Source: Eledone cirrhosa
Taxonomy: Eukaryota
Assembly: GCA_964016885.1 (NCBI GenBank)
Contig: OZ024747.1
Coordinates: forward strand, 67,704,001 to 67,768,000
Direction: 5' to 3'
DNA length: 64,000 nucleotides
Made by a program: the position numbers and the translations under genes. The notes beneath the pieces were generated by a model. It was not told the origin of the DNA and did not search any database. It saw only the letters and a list, made by a program, of their open reading frames with translations. Shown piece by piece: positions 20,770 to 63,747 of the stretch (positions are counted from its first letter, which is position 1; every line of letters begins with the position of its first letter).

Positions 20770-21275
20770 CAAACCAATGAAGTTGTAGAAGGTTTCAATG
20801 AATTGAAATTCATTCAAATCCTTTTATATAGTCATGAAAAATACTGATTTTAAAGAAGTGGACATACTAGTAACAGTTTGATAGATTTCGAGAACAAACT
20901 ATGGGCTAAACTGCTGTGCAGTTTCGGAACAAACTATGGGCTAAAAATGATAAGCTGTGCAATTTCGATATTACTATGGAGTTGAATGATTCTCCACAGT
21001 TGACAGACCTGGTGGGAATCAACATTCTACACAAATAGCAATGTAGAACTGGAAATAAAGTGTAAAATAAATAGGCAGTTTTTTTTTTTAAATAGAGAAC
21101 TAAGCGCAGATATAGAAAATAATACTAAAATTGTGATTTCTTTAGACGTGTTGTTAGCACTACAAACTGGACTACATCGCCTATATCATAAACTCAATGA
21201 GGATCTTCAGTACGATTAAAAATACTCAAACCACCCTAAAGCAATTATAAAATTCATAGTTAACTGTATTAGCTA
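20770..21275 (+). pseudogene. Decayed PLE reverse transcriptase fragment
   Basis: LIDFENKLWAK, NFDITMELNDSPQLTDLVGI, LDVLLALQTGLHRLYHKLNEDLQY and SNHP align with the 62383 ORF (LIEFNNQLW, NFDITMGSSDSAQVTDLVGL, FLDV...FHKLNENLNY, SNHP). Confidence 0.75.
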
Positions 21276-51271: not shown

Positions 51272-51468
51272 TAAATAATTGTTTCTACTTTAGGCACAAG
51301 GCCAGCAATTACCGAGTGCATTACAGGTACTTTATTTTATCGACCCCGTAAAGATGAAAGGCAAAGTCAACCTCGGCGGGATTTGAACTCGGATCGTAAA
51401 GGGACGTAACTATGCTGTAAAGCATGGTGTCCGACCCTATACTGATACTGCCAATCCACCGCCCTCCA
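51272..51468 (-). mobile_element. tRNA-derived SINE, near full length
   Basis: Minus strand: ggagggcggtggattggcagtatc...gagttcaaatcccgccgaggttgactttgcctttcat...gtagaaac(aattatt). Confidence 0.9.
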
Positions 51469-51946: not shown

Positions 51947-52085
51947 TAATAATAATAGTTTCTACTTATAGCACAAGGCCAGCAATTACCCAGTACATTA
52001 CTGGTACTTTATTTTATCGATCCCGTAAGGATGAAAGGCAAAGTTAACCTCGGCGGGATTTGAACTCAGTCCGTAAAGGGACGTA
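51947..52085 (-). mobile_element. 5'-truncated SINE
   Basis: Matches the family consensus. Confidence 0.85.
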
Positions 52086-52229
52086 AATAATAATACAAGG
52101 ACGAATGGTTAAGTCTTCATTACGTTTATTGGTTGTTGACGCGCGGTCCGCAATTGATCAGCTCAAGGTTCCATCTGTATCGATCTGACCCGACTCTGGA
52201 ATCAAAAGGTCGTCGGACCTCTGTTGTAG

Positions 52230-52302: not shown

Positions 52303-52698
52303 GTCTCCCAAAAATGTATACACACTTTGATGACCTGTACAAGCAATATTTATTAGAATGCACAACCTTCCCCCACCGCACCCCACCATGAACTACAGAC
52401 AATTCAATTGTATATAAACACCCCAAAATGTTTACATAATTCAAATAATTATTTTTACTTTTGGCACAAGGCCAGCAATTACTCAGTACATTACTGGTAC
52501 TTTATTTTATCGATCCTGTAAGGATGAAAGGCAAAGTCAACCTCGACGGGATTTGAACTGAGACCGTGAAGAGACGTAACTATGCTAGAAAGCATGGCGT
52601 CCAACCCTCTACCGATACTGCCAATTCACCAGAAAAGAGCATTTAATTTCATGCAATCTTTCTGCTGTTGAAGTGTGTATACATTTTTTAGGATACCC

Positions 52699-52700: not shown

Positions 52701-52795
<95 letters not shown>

Positions 52796-52881
52796 GTGAG
52801 GTTTTTTTTACAAAATGAAAAATAACCGAGGTGTCCTACACGAGTGAAAGTATAAAGAAAAAGAGATGAAATCGAAAATGC

Positions 52882-52972
<91 letters not shown>

Positions 52973-53309
52973 GGAGAAAAGACGTCGGTGATGGCTTTCA
53001 ATCAGGAATATATTTTCCGTGCTATTTCCAATTCCACACTTTACCTATAACCCCTGTTTTGTATAGAACCTTACTCCCTTTTCATAGCGCACAAATATAC
53101 CTCTTTTTACAAAACGGTTTTTTTTTTTCATTTCAGGTAGACGCGCTCCATCATCATTCACTTTTCTAAAAAATAAATCATACACAAAACGCCAGCACCA
53201 GCAGTTTTGCAAGAGATGTCAACATGAATGGTCCTGTTATTTTTATCTAAAGACATTTTTTCCAATACCAGCCAGCCCGTCCCCTCAATCTATCTTATTT
53301 ATCATTCTT

Positions 53310-53345
53310 TCTTCTGATGAAGGACTAGCGTCCGAAACATTAAGA
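53310..53345 (+). ncRNA. Minimal hammerhead motif in a pseudo-LTR-like fragment (53270-53430)
   Basis: TCTT CTGATGA A GGAC TAGC GTCC GAA ACAT T AAGA. Stem III ACAT is probably a CpG-decayed ACGT palindrome. Confidence 0.7.
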
Positions 53346-53620: not shown

Positions 53621-53734
<114 letters not shown>

Positions 53735-53909
53735 GTATCCACAGTAAGTTGTGGGGTCTATTCTGCATGAAGAACTCAATGTAATCCATATGTTGAAAAT
53801 GTTGTAGGTTAAGATAAATCCCGGAAAACAATTAAACATTAAAAGGAAAACAGAGTCATGATATAAGTTAAAACAATGAAATAAAAAATCAAGTCATTAG
53901 AGATATACT

Positions 53910-54053
53910 TCACTGCTTTACAATCGTTTCTAGGTGATAATAATACATTGTAGCTATACTCCGTTATTGATCTATGTAAGGTTAGTTACAAAATATCAGA
54001 TAAAGAGAATATTTACTTACATGCAAATCACCAGCTGTTTTCAAAAGCAATAA
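53910..54053 (-). ncRNA. U3-A8 hammerhead, inverted pseudo-LTR copy
   Basis: Minus strand: TTATTGCTT TTGAAAA CAGCTGGTGAT...ATCACCTA GAA ACGATTGT A AAGCAGTGA. Confidence 0.65.
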
Positions 54054-54149
54054 TAATTTTATTCAGAATTAGTTGTATGTTAGTATCATGTCCTTGTTTG
54101 GAGGTAGTTGAAGAACTAACCAATCAAATTCTTCGATTTCTCCAATTCT

Positions 54150-55562
54150 TTTAAACAAAGCACCGATCTTCGCCAGAAATAGATCGGATTTATCTACTGT
54201 GGAAATCAACATCATAACTCACGCTAGAAAAACCTTACTAAACTTCCAAGAAGAATACTGGACAAGAAACACATATAACAACTTATTTGATATAACGATG
54301 GGATCCATGGACTCTGCTCAAGTTACAGACCTCGTTGAACTATTTCTCCTCTATAATATTCATGACTCTTTTCCCCACCTCAAAGGTGGCCTTTATCGGG
54401 ATGATTGTCTATTGTTATCTAACAATCTTAGCAATTCCAAAATAGAGAAAACAAAAAAAACAAATTAGAAAATTCCCCAAGGACTATTACAGCCTTAGCA
54501 TCACTTGAAAACACTTCAACAGTAGCTAATTTCCTTGACGTTACCTTAGACCTCTCTACGAATACTTATCAACCTTACCACAAACCCAACCAGAATCTAC
54601 ATTATGTACATTCACGATCTAACCACCCTGGCTCTATACTCAAGAACTTAGTATATAACATATCTCTTAGACTTTCTAAATTATCTTCTAATGAAGATAT
54701 ATTTTATAATAATGCACCTTTCTACAACGAGGCCTTAACTAGAAGTGGATATAAAGAAAACATCTTATATATCCCCAACACTACTATGAACCAAAATATA
54801 AAACCTAGCAAAAACTACAAACACCAAAAAATACCATTGAAACAAATACCTAAAGTGGTTATTCCTATTACACCAAACAACCGAAAAACCACAACAACTA
54901 TTACTACACGATCTATGACCAATGTTATCAACCCACATATGAATACCAAGCACTCAAAACCTCATAATCTACCCAATAATAACACCAAATATAGAACACA
55001 AAATCACAATACAACTCTAGCACCAAACCACCCACAAAGCGACCTTCATTCTCCTGCTATCATTAATTACAATAGGAATAGCTCAAGGATTAATGAGAAT
55101 AGTATAGGCACCCCCAACAACCATCTTACGTATGGCTGTAATTGTAGAAATAGAAGCATTTGCCCCTTAAATGGCAACTGTTTGATTAATAATGTAATAT
55201 ATAAATGCACTGTGTCTACTACAGACTCCAACAAAACATATATAGGATCTACATCAAACACATTTAAGGAAAGATTTTACGCACACTCTAGTAGTTTCAA
55301 CAATACTAAACTAGCTAACACCACATCTTTAGCTGAAGCGGTAAATAATTATAAAAAGAAAAAAATAGATTTCAAGTTATCGTGGAACACCATTCTACAA
55401 TGAACTCCATATCTTGGGAACAGGAGGAAATGCAGATTATGTTCAGGGGAGATCTTGGAAATTACTAAATCTAAGGACGATTTATTAAATAAAAGGCAGG
55501 AACTGATCATAGTTTGTAATCACCGTATACGAAGAATATTTAAATACTATAAACCTAATTAA
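54150..55562 (+). pseudogene. PLE RT + GIY-YIG endonuclease, frameshifted
   Basis: FDITMGSMDSAQVTDLV, GLYRDD, NFLDV, SNHP, CNCRNRSICPLNGNC...VIYKC...YIGST..FKERF..H, and CRLC..E...LN...E...C.H. Confidence 0.9.
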
Positions 55563-55798
55563 ATATTCTAAATAGCAACTCACTATAATTCTATATAGAG
55601 TAACATTTATTAGTACCCCTTTCCACTAATTATATGCATTCATTTTTACCTTTTAATGTTTTAGCTTCCTTAAGTTTATGCGTTAATGACTAAAGGCAAC
55701 AAGGTACACAACCACCCGTAATTGCATGAGTAAAAATATATATCTATGTATGATATGAAAATATATTTATGTGTGTGTATATATATATTTATGTATGT

Positions 55799-55868
<70 letters not shown>

Positions 55869-56794
55869 ATATGTATGTGTGTGTGTGTATGTGTGTATAT
55901 ATATGTGTGTTTGTGTGTGTGTATATGTGAGTATATGTGTATGAGTGTTTATATATGAGTGTGTGTATATGTATGAGGTGTGTACATACACACATATATA
56001 TATGTGTGTGTATATATATATGTATGTGTGTATATATATATATATGTATATATGTGGGTATAGGTGTGTATGTGTTGATATAGATATGTATGGATATGTG
56101 TGTATATGATTATGTGCACATGTGTAAATGTGTATTTAGGTTTGCATCTATTTGTGCGTATGTATATTTTTGGTTGGATATCAATATAACTGTACCTCTC
56201 TATATATAGTGTGGATATATGCATTTTGTAATCTATGAAATTTATGTGTTTTAACTATGCCAACATGTATTTATCTGAGTTTGATTATTTATACATAAAC
56301 ATACTTGATAGTATTTTAGAGCATATCATATGCTGTATTATACTAAGTGCAATTTACCACACCGTACTATATTGTGTTGGTTATGTTGTATATTATCGCA
56401 TTACTGTATTTCATTATCTTATTATAATTTTCATCTTTTAATATACTATCTGTCCTAGCCCTAACCTTAATTTATATTCACCTAAAAACTCAATACAACA
56501 CTAATCACCATTTATTTTGACATTTATTTTTATTTTTATATTCCTTTTAAACTTCACTATACTAAATATATTCAACTATCAGTTTGACAATCCCTTTCCT
56601 CCTAATAGATTTTTATGCCAATTCTACTATTAACACCATTCAACCATTCCTTTCAAAGGGTCATGACCTCAACTAAAGTGTATTACTTTTCATCTTAACA
56701 CCATATGAAAAAAAAACAATTTGATTGGTTAATTCTTCAACTATCCCCAAACAAGGATATGATACTAACATACTACTAATTCTGAATACAATTA

Positions 56795-56938
56795 TTACTG
56801 CTTTTGAAAACAGCTGGTGATATGCATGTAAGTAAATATTCTCTTTATCTGATATTTTGTAACTAACCTTACATAGATCAATAACGGAGTATAGCTACAA
56901 TGTATTATCATCACCTAGAAACGATCGTAAAGCAGTAA
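56795..56938 (+). ncRNA. U3-A8 hammerhead with ~107-nt branched stem II, in the 3' pseudo-LTR
   Basis: TTACTGCTT TTGAAAA CAGCTGGTGAT...ATCACCTA GAA ACGATCGT A AAGCAGTAA: perfect 9-bp stem I and palindromic stem III. Confidence 0.72.
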
Positions 56939-56980
56939 AGTATATCTCTAATGACTTGATTTTTTATTTCATTGTTTTAA

Positions 56981-57045
<65 letters not shown>

Positions 57046-58732: not shown

Positions 58733-59004
58733 TAATAATTGTTTCTACTTTTTGGCACAAGGCCAACAATTACCTCAGTGTATTACTGGTGCTTTATTTT
58801 ATCGACCCCGTAAGGATGAAAGGCAAAGCTAACCTAGGAGGGATTTGAAATCAGAACGTAAAGGGCCATAACTCTATGCTTGCAAAGTATGGTGCCTGAC
58901 GCTCTACCAATACTGCCAATCCACCGGCCATATTGTTTTTACTTTTGGCACAAGGCCAGCAATTACCCCAGTGTATTATTGGTGTTTTATTTTATCGACC
59001 CCGT
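58733..59004 (-). mobile_element. Tandem SINE copies (one near full length, one partial)
   Basis: Match the family consensus. More decayed relatives lie at ~60330-60435 and ~60520-60700. Confidence 0.85.
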
Positions 59005-61446: not shown

Positions 61447-61501
61447 GTGAGGTTCTTTTTACAAAATGAAAAATAATCGAGGTGTCCTACACGAGTGAAA
61501 G

Positions 61502-61709
61502 TATAAAGAAAAAGAGATGAAATCGAAAATGCAACTGGAGTCTTATTTTTTTAAAAAATATATATATTTATTTGGTTCCTTTACCGGTTTCGCAGTTCTT
61601 CTGCTTTTCAAAAGCAGAAGAACTGCGAAACCGGTAAAGGAACCAAATAAATATATATATTTAAAAAAAAAATAAGACTCCAGTTGCATTTTCGATTTCA
61701 TCTCTTTTT

Positions 61710-61716
<7 letters not shown>
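61502..61716. repeat. Near-perfect ~215-bp palindrome centred on 61609
   Basis: ...accggtttcgcagttcttctgctttt C aaaagcagaagaactgcgaaaccggt... The same family recurs truncated at 52789-52885. Confidence 0.95.
61579..61614 (-). ncRNA. Minimal U3-A8 hammerhead at the palindrome centre
   Basis: Minus strand: CTT TTGAAAA GCAG AAGAA CTGC GAA ACCGGT A AAG. Confidence 0.75.
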
Positions 61717-62219: not shown

Positions 62220-63747
62220 TAAAAGCCATCATAGTGAAGTTATCGATTGGTTTAAAGAAATTAAATATAACTATAATAATAAGTTTATTCAGTTGGATAT
62301 TGCTAACTATTAGTCATCTATCACTCCTAATCTACTGAATAAGACACTAACTTTTAAACATACAGACATAACTAGCAATGAAATGCACATTATATTATCG
62401 GCACGGAAAACATTAATAGAATTTAATAACCAACTCTGGACTAGGGCAGATAGAAATAATAATTTCGACATAACTATGGGATCATCCGATTCCGCTCAGG
62501 TAACGGATCTTGTAGGCCTATTTATAATTAATTCTCTACATAGAAAAATACCTGAGATAACCGGAGGTTTATATCGTGACGACATGCTTTTACTTATAGA
62601 AAATAATAACTGTGAACTAAATAGAAAAAGAAAACAAATTATACAATTTTATAATTACCTTAATCTAAAAGTAGAAATAGAGAATAACCATAAAATAGTC
62701 AATTTTCTAGATGTAACACTAAATCTTAACACATGTCTTCATTATCCATTTCACAAACTAAATGAGAACTTAAATTACGTCAATTTTAACTCTAATCACC
62801 CCAGATACGTTAAAAATACTATAGTGAACTCTGTACAAGAACGAATTTCGAGAATTTCAGCTAATAAGAATATATTTGATGAAAAGGCACATTATTACAA
62901 CGAAGCGTTAGGTAGAGCTGGGTATAGAAATAAAATTAAATACATCGATAATAATAATAATATAACAACTAACCATAATCGTAACAATTCTAACTATGGT
63001 AACAATTTTAACAACTATAATAGAAAACCTTACATTAATTCCGAAAGCCGAAAAAGAAATAGAACTAGGAACATATTATGGTTAGCTCCTCCTTTCTCAT
63101 TAAATATTAAAACCCCTATTGCTAAACTATTTTTTAAAGCTCTTGACAAATGCTTCCCTAGAACACATAGATATTACTCAATTTTTAATAGACATACTAT
63201 AAAATTAACTTATTCTTCCACCAAAAATTTAGCGCAAAATATTAATAGAATTAATAATAGAAATTTAAAACCTAACCAAAATACCAATAATAACCCAAGC
63301 AATATTCAATCTGATAAATGTAACTGTAGAAATAAATCTAACTGTCCGTTAAATAACAATTGCTTAGCTAAAAATGTAGTATATAATTGTAATGTAAAAA
63401 CTAATTTAAATTCATTTAATTATGTGGGATCTACTTCCACAGAGTTTAAATCCCGCTTCAATAATCATAAAAATTCTTTTACGGATCCAAACAAAAATTC
63501 TTCAACTTCTCTATCTAGCCTATTATGGTAACTAAAACTAAAGAACGTTGAATATTCGTTGATTTGGAATATTATTTCAAAAGCTACTCCTTTTAACTCC
63601 TCTTCAGAAAATTGCGATCTTTGTATAGAGGAAATATTCTTTATATTAAAGACCAAAAATTCCCTGAACTTAAGGAATAATTTATTCAGTTGCTGCAGAC
63701 ATAGATTAAACTCAACGTTTAAATATAAATATAAATTTAAAATGTAG
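62220..63747 (+). pseudogene. PLE RT + GIY-YIG endonuclease with premature stops
   Basis: EVIDWFKEIK..FIQLDIANY*, FDITMGSSDSAQVTDLVG, GLYRDD, WLAPPFS, CNCRNKSNCPLNNNC..VVY..YVGST..FKSRFNNH. After an in-frame TAA at 63529 it continues CDLCIEE..LN.R....CCRH. Confidence 0.92.

What the first reader, a model, noticed from the sequence alone, without database searches (positions are those of the whole stretch)
53861..56987. PLE physically linked to an oversized variant ribozyme in both inverted pseudo-LTRs
Seen: RT/GIY-YIG remnants bracketed by 270-bp inverted copies, each holding a U3-A8 HHR. Its stem II is expanded to ~107 nt (GGTGAT/ATCACC base, inner ATGTAAG/CTTACAT and AAATAT/ATATTT helices). 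The stem I and III differences between copies keep pairing as G-U. PLE HHRs are usually minimal, so a branched domain here is atypical and might be an RT-binding or regulatory module (inference). This links the variant ribozyme to a specific element with a CxCx5C linker; clade assignment needs phylogeny.
Basis: partly seen in the sequence, partly recalled or inferred. Interest (0 to 1): 0.72.

Follow-up and report, generated by a model that had tools for sequence, protein, structure and literature searches.

The report
Rod-armed hammerhead in Hydra-type retrotransposon
This is a broken copy of a known kind of animal jumping gene (a Penelope-like element) whose end repeat carries a hammerhead, predicted self-cutting, RNA motif with one arm stretched to 107 bases, four to ten times longer than in relatives from other organisms; the arm is predicted to fold as an unbranched rod kept by selection and likely serves as a protein-docking handle.

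Summary
The observation largely holds. Window 53728-56987 is a two-armed, 5'-truncated insertion of a Hydra-type Penelope-like element in (TA)n. Both arms carry a type I hammerhead motif with a U3-A8 core, an 8-nt palindromic stem III and a 107-nt stem II. The family has 968 exact-pattern copies (control 0), and 12 of 30 loci show the motif in a true direct-repeat pLTR before the ORF.

Three corrections. (2) The between-copy G-U differences are private mutations, not covariation. (3) The 273-bp arm is a truncation product.

Inherited variants keep rod pairing more often than private ones (10/16 vs 15/52, p 0.02), without two-sided covariation. A sister family has a C3-G8 core and a homologous 101-nt arm. 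A long-arm pattern matches 11,025 places (control 517). Hammerheads in 55 of 77 Hydra-like metagenome loci have only 10-27-nt arms. A UAG-containing internal loop recurs. Cleavage and binding are untested.

This scan reported long-armed hammerheads before, in this and other genomes. Verdict: new variant of a known kind.

The parts
53629..53727 (.). (TA)n target microsatellite, left flank
   Evidence: sequence
53728..53860 (-). 133-nt tail (start of the next unit's 5' leader), present on this arm only
   Evidence: in full-length copies it follows the pLTR and ends about 81 nt before the ATG
53861..54133 (-). inverted, 5'-truncated copy of the element's 3' end (left arm)
   Evidence: other copies are truncated at other points
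53910..54053 (-). left hammerhead motif: core 54044-54038, stem II 54037-53931, predicted cleavage after 53919; carries a C-to-T change in stem III and an A-to-T change in stem II
54134..55562 (+). 5'-truncated RT plus C-terminal GIY-YIG ORF remnant: N-terminal third missing, one frameshift near 54460, a stop at about 55401, and an internal deletion of about 440 nt at about 54991
55137..55163 (+). CxCX5C linker (CNCRNRSIC), diagnostic of the Hydra clade
   Evidence: PMC8557442 section 11
55563..56987 (+). 3' UTR / pseudo-LTR with internal microsatellites, ending at the short 3' end
56795..56938 (+). right hammerhead motif, type I: stem I 56795-56803 with 56930-56938, U3-A8 core 56804-56810, GAAA 56918-56921, palindromic stem III 56921-56928, predicted cleavage after A56929
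56811..56917 (+). 107-nt stem II, predicted unbranched rod with C-A at its base and a C-C mismatch at the fourth position
56850..56879 (+). apical part shared in sequence with the sister family: internal loop ATTT (56854-56857) opposite TAG (56874-56876), and the TGTAA/TTACA hairpin
56988..57040 (.). (TA)n target microsatellite, right flank
   Evidence: sequence

Best explanation
This is a dead, two-armed insertion of a Hydra-type Penelope-like retrotransposon whose end repeat holds a type I hammerhead motif, predicted to cut only as a dimer, with stem II extended into a predicted 107-nt unbranched rod that likely acts as a protein-docking handle controlling when the ribozyme folds and cuts. 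Shown: the element, its two kinds of 3' end, the motif's position about 270 nt before the ATG in tandem copies, and selection for pairing in the rod. Inferred: tandem transcripts pair two motifs through the ACGAUCGU palindrome. As a monomer the core is trapped by pairing with the cleavage strand. Reverse transcription starts about 55 or about 190 nt downstream of the cut site on uncut (or re-joined) RNA, one site per arm, which gives the inverted short-end/tail-end insertion. Least certain (about 40%): the rod's internal loop, A(U/G)UU opposite UAG, binds the element's RT-EN protein or a host factor that assists cleavage.
For: Element: CxCX5C, DKT, RWR, CxxC and CxH round the EN E/N residues, and (TA)n flanks (PMC8557442 section 11). 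Ribozyme register: across three subfamilies (100 copies) the only subfamily change in the core is at the free N7; stem I changes C-G to U-G, and variation starts just outside stem I. The sister family has C3-G8 instead of U3-A8, two compensatory changes in stem I and the same stem III. Dimer: palindrome duplex -10.0 kcal/mol; monomer core sequestered with p 0.8-0.9 in the right copy; precedent in PMC4209133. Rod: basal and apical helices p about 0.8-0.9, z -3.1 to -4.3. In 70 copies, inherited alleles keep pairing 10 of 16 times against 15 of 52 for private alleles (Fisher p 0.02, structure from the window copy alone; 9/15 vs 15/54, p 0.03, with the old-subfamily fold). In about 1.5 kb of UTR plus tail, the hammerhead with its apical arm is the only significant non-microsatellite match to the sister family (E 3e-5 and 6e-8). 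UAG ends 41 nt before G12 in both families, and 14-19 nt before it in 10 of 12 other long-arm types (1.4 expected; the types are related, so not independent). Ends: 22 of 26 divergent pairs have one short and one tail end. Precedent for a protein-assisted PLE hammerhead and internal RT start: PMC11167929.
Against: No cleavage, probing or binding data. No two-sided covariation in the rod: 159-258 of 500 shuffles reach the observed measures. The middle of the rod shifts register between subfamilies, and 6 of 16 inherited alleles break a pair of the single-sequence fold. The arm has no sequence likeness to 12 other long-arm types (z at most 2.0). The 5' partner of the UAG is A(U/G)U-like in only some of them, and my automatic partner search picked another segment for types C and E. 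Hydra-like families with 31-, 36- and 54-nt arms occur in the same radiation, and the 54-nt one has many intact ORFs, so a long arm is not needed for transposition. In the anole PLE, hammerhead mutants insert normally and the minimal template lies mostly downstream of stem II (PMC11167929). The C-A at 10.1-11.1 and the U3-A8 core may make cleavage weak (inference).
Confidence: 0.5

Rival explanations
1. The long arm is a tolerated by-product. Stem II grew by hairpin expansion in this host's Hydra radiation, and selection keeps it paired only so that the core can close; it has no function of its own.
For: Arm lengths form a continuum of 14-107 nt in this genome. Arms of different families do not align. 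All supporting changes are one-sided. Short-armed families thrive.
Against: The apical loop region outlasts the rest of the UTR between the two sister families. A UAG recurs at a fixed distance from the core. Only 6 copies with large internal deletions were found, in 5 different forms, against 968 full-arm matches.
Confidence: 0.27
2. The UAG is a 3' splice site. Splicing of a pLTR intron would remove the 5' half of the ribozyme from the mRNA, while unspliced RNA keeps it.
For: TAG is followed by G or A in most types. Donor-like AG/GTAAAT and AG/GTATGT lie 45 and 42 nt upstream in the old subfamily and the sister family. In Drosophila Penelope an intron ends at the hammerhead (PMC4209133).
Against: 0 of 6 deletion copies have a GT-AG junction. 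About a fifth of the first 100 listed copies lack the branch-point-like CTAA (counted by eye). Pyrimidine tracts are poor in several types. An intron of 42-45 nt is shorter than usual for molluscs (recalled, no call).
Confidence: 0.1
3. The motif is kept as a structure but cuts little or not at all; the element copies uncut RNA and the hammerhead shape has another use.
For: U3-A8 core, C-A at the base of stem II and a self-inhibiting monomer fold. All genomic 3' ends lie downstream of the cut site. PLE hammerheads cut weakly in vitro (PMC4209133), and cleavage was not needed for insertion in PMC11167929.
Against: The core positions are kept with only N7 free, and U3-A8 exchanges with C3-G8 between sister families, as expected under selection for catalysis.
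Confidence: 0.09
4. The insert is a branched domain built from the first reader's inner helices, or a second hammerhead nested inside stem II (old copies read CTGATGA ... CGAAA ... GTA there).
For: The inner helices can be drawn. One pair in ATGTAAG/CTTACAT shows A-U to G-C in 3 of 16 rows. 167 copies have the inner CTGATGA.
Against: Probability 0.00 for both helices. That same pair is A-C in 15 of 55 old copies. Inherited alleles keep and break this model equally, 3 and 3. The inner core has no proper stems I-III, is lost in the younger subfamilies and is absent from the sister family.
Confidence: 0.04

Closest known systems
Hydra clade of Penelope-like elements and their hammerheads, including Hydra-1_Obim of Octopus bimaculoides (Craig et al. 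2021, PMC8557442; passages, sections 6 and 11, supplement parts 1, 2 and 52 read)
   Same: RT followed by C-terminal GIY-YIG, CxCX5C linker, DKT, no CCHH, (TA)n target, inverted truncated arm, tail on one end, type I hammerhead near the 3' end, self-complementary short stem III, often a non-canonical pair at the base of stem II.
   Different: Stem II segment is 107 nt against about 12-26 nt in File S2 (read by eye) and 10-27 nt in 55 metagenome loci. U3-A8 core; RWR instead of RWK; tail 133 nt instead of 30-40; unit about 4.3 kb (my estimate) instead of under 3 kb. Hydra-1_Obim's own hammerhead is short and differs in sequence.
Minimal hammerheads of metazoan PLEs, including the U3-A8 variant of Schistosoma Cercyon elements (Cervera and De la Pena 2014, PMC4209133; parts 1-2 of 4 read)
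   Same: Located in the pLTR, palindromic stem III, predicted dimer activity; the U3-A8 core is known.
   Different: Their helix II is 6-8 bp with a conserved G10.1-C11.1 pair; here it is a rod of about 36-40 bp closed by C-A.
PAc (Poseidon of Anolis carolinensis) protein-assisted hammerhead and internal RT start (Frangieh et al. 2024, PMC11167929; parts 1-2 of 4 read)
   Same: Two 3' ends that define a tail, both downstream of the ribozyme; AT-rich target.
   Different: Other clade; the ORF starts inside stem II; the passages read report no long arm; tested in vitro, whereas this one is not.
Plant PLE-X hammerheads of Selaginella (File S2 of PMC8557442)
   Same: Longest stem II segments I saw in print for PLEs, about 50 nt (read by eye).
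   Different: Half the length, EN-minus elements in 28S rDNA, C3-G8 core, long unpaired loop.

Membership tests
Hydra clade PLE | single ORF with RT and C-terminal GIY-YIG endonuclease | tested here: met
   (GIY-YIG E 0.0009, below Pfam's cut-off)
Hydra clade PLE | CxCX5C linker | tested here: met
   CNCRNRSIC
Hydra clade PLE | DKG changed to DKT | tested here: met
   not in the truncated window copy; SDKT in most family copies that cover it, single exceptions DET and DTT
Hydra clade PLE | RWK motif in place of GxKF/Y | tested here: inconclusive
   RWR in 11 of the 17 loci that cover the site; a conservative variant
Hydra clade PLE | CCHH motif absent; CxxC and CxH flank the EN E and N residues | tested here: met
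   one Cys only between IY and YIG; CRLC...E...N...CNH (read by eye)
Hydra clade PLE | insertion into (TA)n | tested here: met
   both window flanks; 72 of the 83 non-tail 3' ends run straight into a TA or CA dinucleotide run
Hydra clade PLE | hammerhead in a pseudo-LTR | tested here: met
   pLTR, tail and ORF start in 12 of 30 loci, two of them near-duplicates
Hydra clade PLE | no insertion-in-fingers domain | not tested
   not examined
Hydra clade PLE | RT phylogeny groups with named Hydra elements against Penelope/Poseidon, Neptune and Nematis | not testable with these tools
   no named reference proteins were available to the tree; one search holds only unnamed Hydra-like proteins
Type I hammerhead ribozyme | core YUGANRA...GAAA...NUH with a 3-8 pair | tested here: met
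   U3-A8, GUA site; N7 varies, rest fixed; C3-G8 in the sister family
Type I hammerhead ribozyme | stems I, II and III around the core | tested here: met
   stem I 9 bp; stem II rod; stem III only as an 8-bp intermolecular palindrome
Type I hammerhead ribozyme | tertiary contact between stems I and II | not tested
   a C-C mismatch at position 4 of stem II recurs in long and short relatives and may serve; inference only
Type I hammerhead ribozyme | site-specific self-cleavage | not testable with these tools
   needs an assay or raw RNA reads
PLE minimal hammerhead (Cervera and De la Pena 2014) | helix II of 6-8 bp closed by G10.1-C11.1 | tested here: not met
   C-A at the base in 99 of 100 copies, 107-nt arm; not filed as a minimal hammerhead

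The most novel reading that the evidence does not exclude
This host's Hydra retrotransposons have evolved a distinct class of rod-armed hammerheads, over ten thousand copies in at least six protein-linked families and too long for the spacer limits quoted in the literature read. In them stem II carries a conserved internal loop that docks the element's own RT-endonuclease, so that cleavage is switched by protein binding and coupled to the choice between translation and copying.
Probability: 0.25. Interest if true: 0.78.

Novelty: new variant of a known kind. Interest (0 to 1): 0.5.

Why it matters
The role of hammerheads in Penelope-like elements is an open question (PMC8557442, PMC11167929). 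Here natural variants with arms from 14 to 107 nt sit in one radiation, some very young (40 of 40 scored copies of a 90-nt-arm family are 100% identical by the rounded score). That allows a clean test of whether stem II is a passive closure or a protein-binding control arm. It also shows that searches with short stem II limits can miss thousands of motifs in one genome. The window's copy itself is dead and ordinary; the element class, the U3-A8 core and the inverted layout are all published.

Tried and rejected
Rfam scan: no hammerhead family matched, only microsatellite-driven miRNA noise. Pfam: weak GIY-YIG only; nothing for two full-length relatives.

Nested second hammerhead: suggested, rejected. 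Intron inside stem II: no support from deletion copies, kept as a minor rival. A-to-I editing as the source of the G-U pairs: inherited alleles are 9 A/G against 8 C/T of 22, so no bias.

Expression: no RNA holder listed. The four runs laid were contigs of unknown library that behave like genomic DNA, with no clean GT-AG joint; uninformative.

Tree: the EN tree joins the two long-arm groups only weakly (86/79) and the RT+EN tree leaves them unresolved, so one origin or two cannot be told. Left out of the tree: long-arm types with no ORF in the fetched stretch (8 of 14), and L037, whose short hammerhead belongs to a nested insert. Weak members of the long-arm set: L192 (z 0.09, stem III not palindromic), L194 (z -0.34), L086, L151, L189, D and L161 (z -1.0 to -1.7).

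Literature: six searches found no report of 80-110-nt stem II in PLE hammerheads. Luense et al. 2017 (RNA Biol) is not held, and it or its supplements, and the supplements of PMC4209133 (not opened), may hold long-arm variants.

Full report
1. What is in the window. The arms 53861-54133 and 56715-56987 are 273 nt and 96% complementary. Between them, on the + strand, lies a broken RT-to-GIY-YIG frame with the linker CNCRNRSIC. It lacks the N-terminal third, has one frameshift and one stop, and about 440 nt are missing at about 54991 relative to other copies. The right end runs into (TA)n. The left arm continues for 133 nt (53728-53860) before (TA)n, and this stretch is shared by many copies. 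The host genome is 3.0 Gb in 1796 contigs. An octopus is likely, from likeness to Hydra-1_Obim (by eye) and from earlier notes of this scan; no call names it.

2. The element. A search with the N-terminal DNA gave 30 loci. In 12 of them the order is pLTR, 133-nt tail, about 81 nt, ATG, so the repeat is a true direct pseudo-LTR in tandem copies. The family has DKT, RWR (11 of 17 loci that cover it), CxCX5C, no CCHH, and CxxC/CxH round the EN E and N. These match the Hydra clade of Craig et al. 2021 (PMC8557442, section 11), which already includes an octopus member with a short hammerhead (File S1/S2). An inverted 5'-truncated copy and a one-sided tail are described there as usual (section 6). 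In my loci 22 of 26 divergent pairs have one short end and one tail end, 2 have two tails and 2 were unclassified. It fits two internal start sites of reverse transcription, as shown for the anole element (PMC11167929).

3. The ribozyme register. Right copy: stem I 56795-56803 with 56930-56938, core TTGAAAA 56804-56810, 107-nt spacer, GAAA at 56918, palindrome ACGATCGT, site GTA at 56927-56929. Among 100 copies in three subfamilies (37, 8, 55; 3 further rows dropped as truncated or mixed), the only subfamily change in the core is N7 (A or C). Stem I changes C-G to U-G at one pair, and free variation begins just outside stem I. The O group was partly selected by a pattern that fixes some 5' positions. 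An exact pattern finds 968 copies, control 0. A sister family has CTGAAGA (C3-G8), two compensatory changes in stem I, the same stem III and a homologous 101-nt spacer; its protein is sister to the window family with 100/96 and 100/99 support. U3-A8 itself is published for Schistosoma PLEs (PMC4209133). The palindrome gives an 8-bp duplex of -10.0 kcal/mol, and in the right monomer the core pairs with the cleavage strand (p 0.8-0.9; 0.1-0.2 for three of the four pairs in the left copy), so dimer-only cleavage is predicted. The differences between the two window copies are private: 30 of 31 close copies have T at 56798 and G at 56937.

4. The insert. Folded alone, all six subfamily majorities give one hairpin loop, z -3.1 to -4.3, with basal and apical helices at p about 0.8-0.9. 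That register does appear in the whole-molecule MFE of the window copies, but it is broken in the old subfamily. RNAalifold on 16 copies gives the rod. On 70 gap-free copies, alleles shared by 5 or more copies keep pairing 10 of 11 times against 15 of 49 for private alleles under the alifold model (partly circular). With a fold from the window copy alone it is 10 of 16 against 15 of 52, p 0.02, and with the old-subfamily fold 9 of 15 against 15 of 54, p 0.03. Against this, there is no two-sided covariation beyond shuffles, and the middle of the rod changes register between subfamilies. Between the window family and its sister, the hammerhead with the apical part of the arm is the only significant non-microsatellite match in about 1.5 kb. 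Only 6 copies with large deletions in the arm were found, none at a GT-AG junction.

5. How widespread. A pattern for C3-G8 cores with 70-100-nt spacers matches 11,025 places against 517 for the control (pattern matches, most not checked). From the loci fetched I saw 14 long-arm types of 76-107 nt; 11 fold unbranched and 3 branched, and several fold weakly. Six of the 14 are linked to a Hydra-like ORF. Arms of 14-63 nt also occur, and a family with many intact 784-aa frames has a U3-A8 core, a 54-nt arm and a long stem III. The long arms of other types do not align with the window's (z at most 2.0), but a TAG ends 14-19 nt before G12 in 10 of 12 (1.4 expected; related sequences), and 41 nt before it in the window family and its sister, there opposite A(T/G)TT. 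As an outside control, 55 of 77 Hydra-like loci from metagenome contigs hold a hammerhead on the sense strand (3 on the antisense strand), all with spacers of 10-27 nt, 42 distinct.

6. Mechanism. Shown: anatomy, copy number, end pattern, selection for pairing. Inferred from known PLE biology: transcription through tandem units, dimer cleavage via stem III, and copying of uncut or re-joined RNA from two sites past the cut. Because both 3' ends lie downstream of the cut site, the rod is not the RT start site, and after cleavage it would end the upstream RNA. I commit to the rod as a protein-docking arm that helps or times cleavage, about 40% for that step. The by-product explanation is the main rival.

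7. Known or new. Element class, layout, U3-A8 and dimer logic are known. An 80-110-nt stem II was not found in six searches or in the papers read: PMC8557442 (passages, sections 6 and 11, supplement parts 1, 2, 52), PMC4209133 and PMC11167929 (parts 1-2 of 4), bioRxiv 10.64898/2026.07.22.740005 (part 1 of 5), and passages of PMC7229834, PMC3088659, PMC6765202, PMC13725137 and PMC13282606. Luense et al. 2017 could not be read. This scan has reported long-armed Hydra hammerheads before, 26 notes in at least 3 genomes; a look-up with this exact sequence found none. Verdict: new variant of a known kind, interest 0.5.

Noticed in passing
window 53306-53345 (+): A separate minimal hammerhead motif (CTGATGA, 13-nt stem II with GGAC/GTCC, 4-bp stem I) about 110 nt before a microsatellite; probably the 3' end of another PLE.
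   Followed up: partly
window 62236-63702 (+): A second, more divergent Hydra-like RT-EN remnant (38% to P0001, CNCRNKSNC linker) whose 3' UTR runs off the window.
   Followed up: partly
window 61488-61716: Long near-perfect inverted repeat, read by eye, centred on 61573-61645; each arm holds GAAACCGGTA and the 3' half of a hammerhead-like end. It looks like a very short two-armed PLE insertion, and similar sequence lies at 52790-52885.
   Followed up: no
window 20928-21273 (+): Short Hydra-like RT fragment.
   Followed up: no
window 51273-51460, 51950-52137, 52443-52630, 58750-58930: Copies of a dispersed SINE-like repeat of about 190 nt; it resembles octopus SINEs as I recall them, no call tested this.
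   Followed up: no
L142:1256-7138 (G000:C1:437199000-437208900): Young Hydra-like family in head-to-tail arrays of 3531 bp with intact 784-aa frames at many sites; its hammerhead has a U3-A8 core, a 54-nt stem II and a long stem III that should fold as a monomer.
   Followed up: partly
L031:5630-7000 (-): A very young second Hydra family with a 90-nt-arm C3-G8 hammerhead, inserted into the (TA)n inside the window family's own 3' UTR.
   Followed up: yes
several loci, e.g. L140:867, L113:2092, L037:4600, L045:7704: Short-armed relatives (26-32 nt) share the C-C mismatch at the fourth position of stem II with the window family and its sister, a candidate tertiary contact.
   Followed up: partly
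family copies, e.g. L041, L046; window 56863-56866: A subfamily with a 4-nt deletion in the apical loop and ATTT changed to AGTT in the internal loop, the same loop sequence as the sister family.
   Followed up: partly
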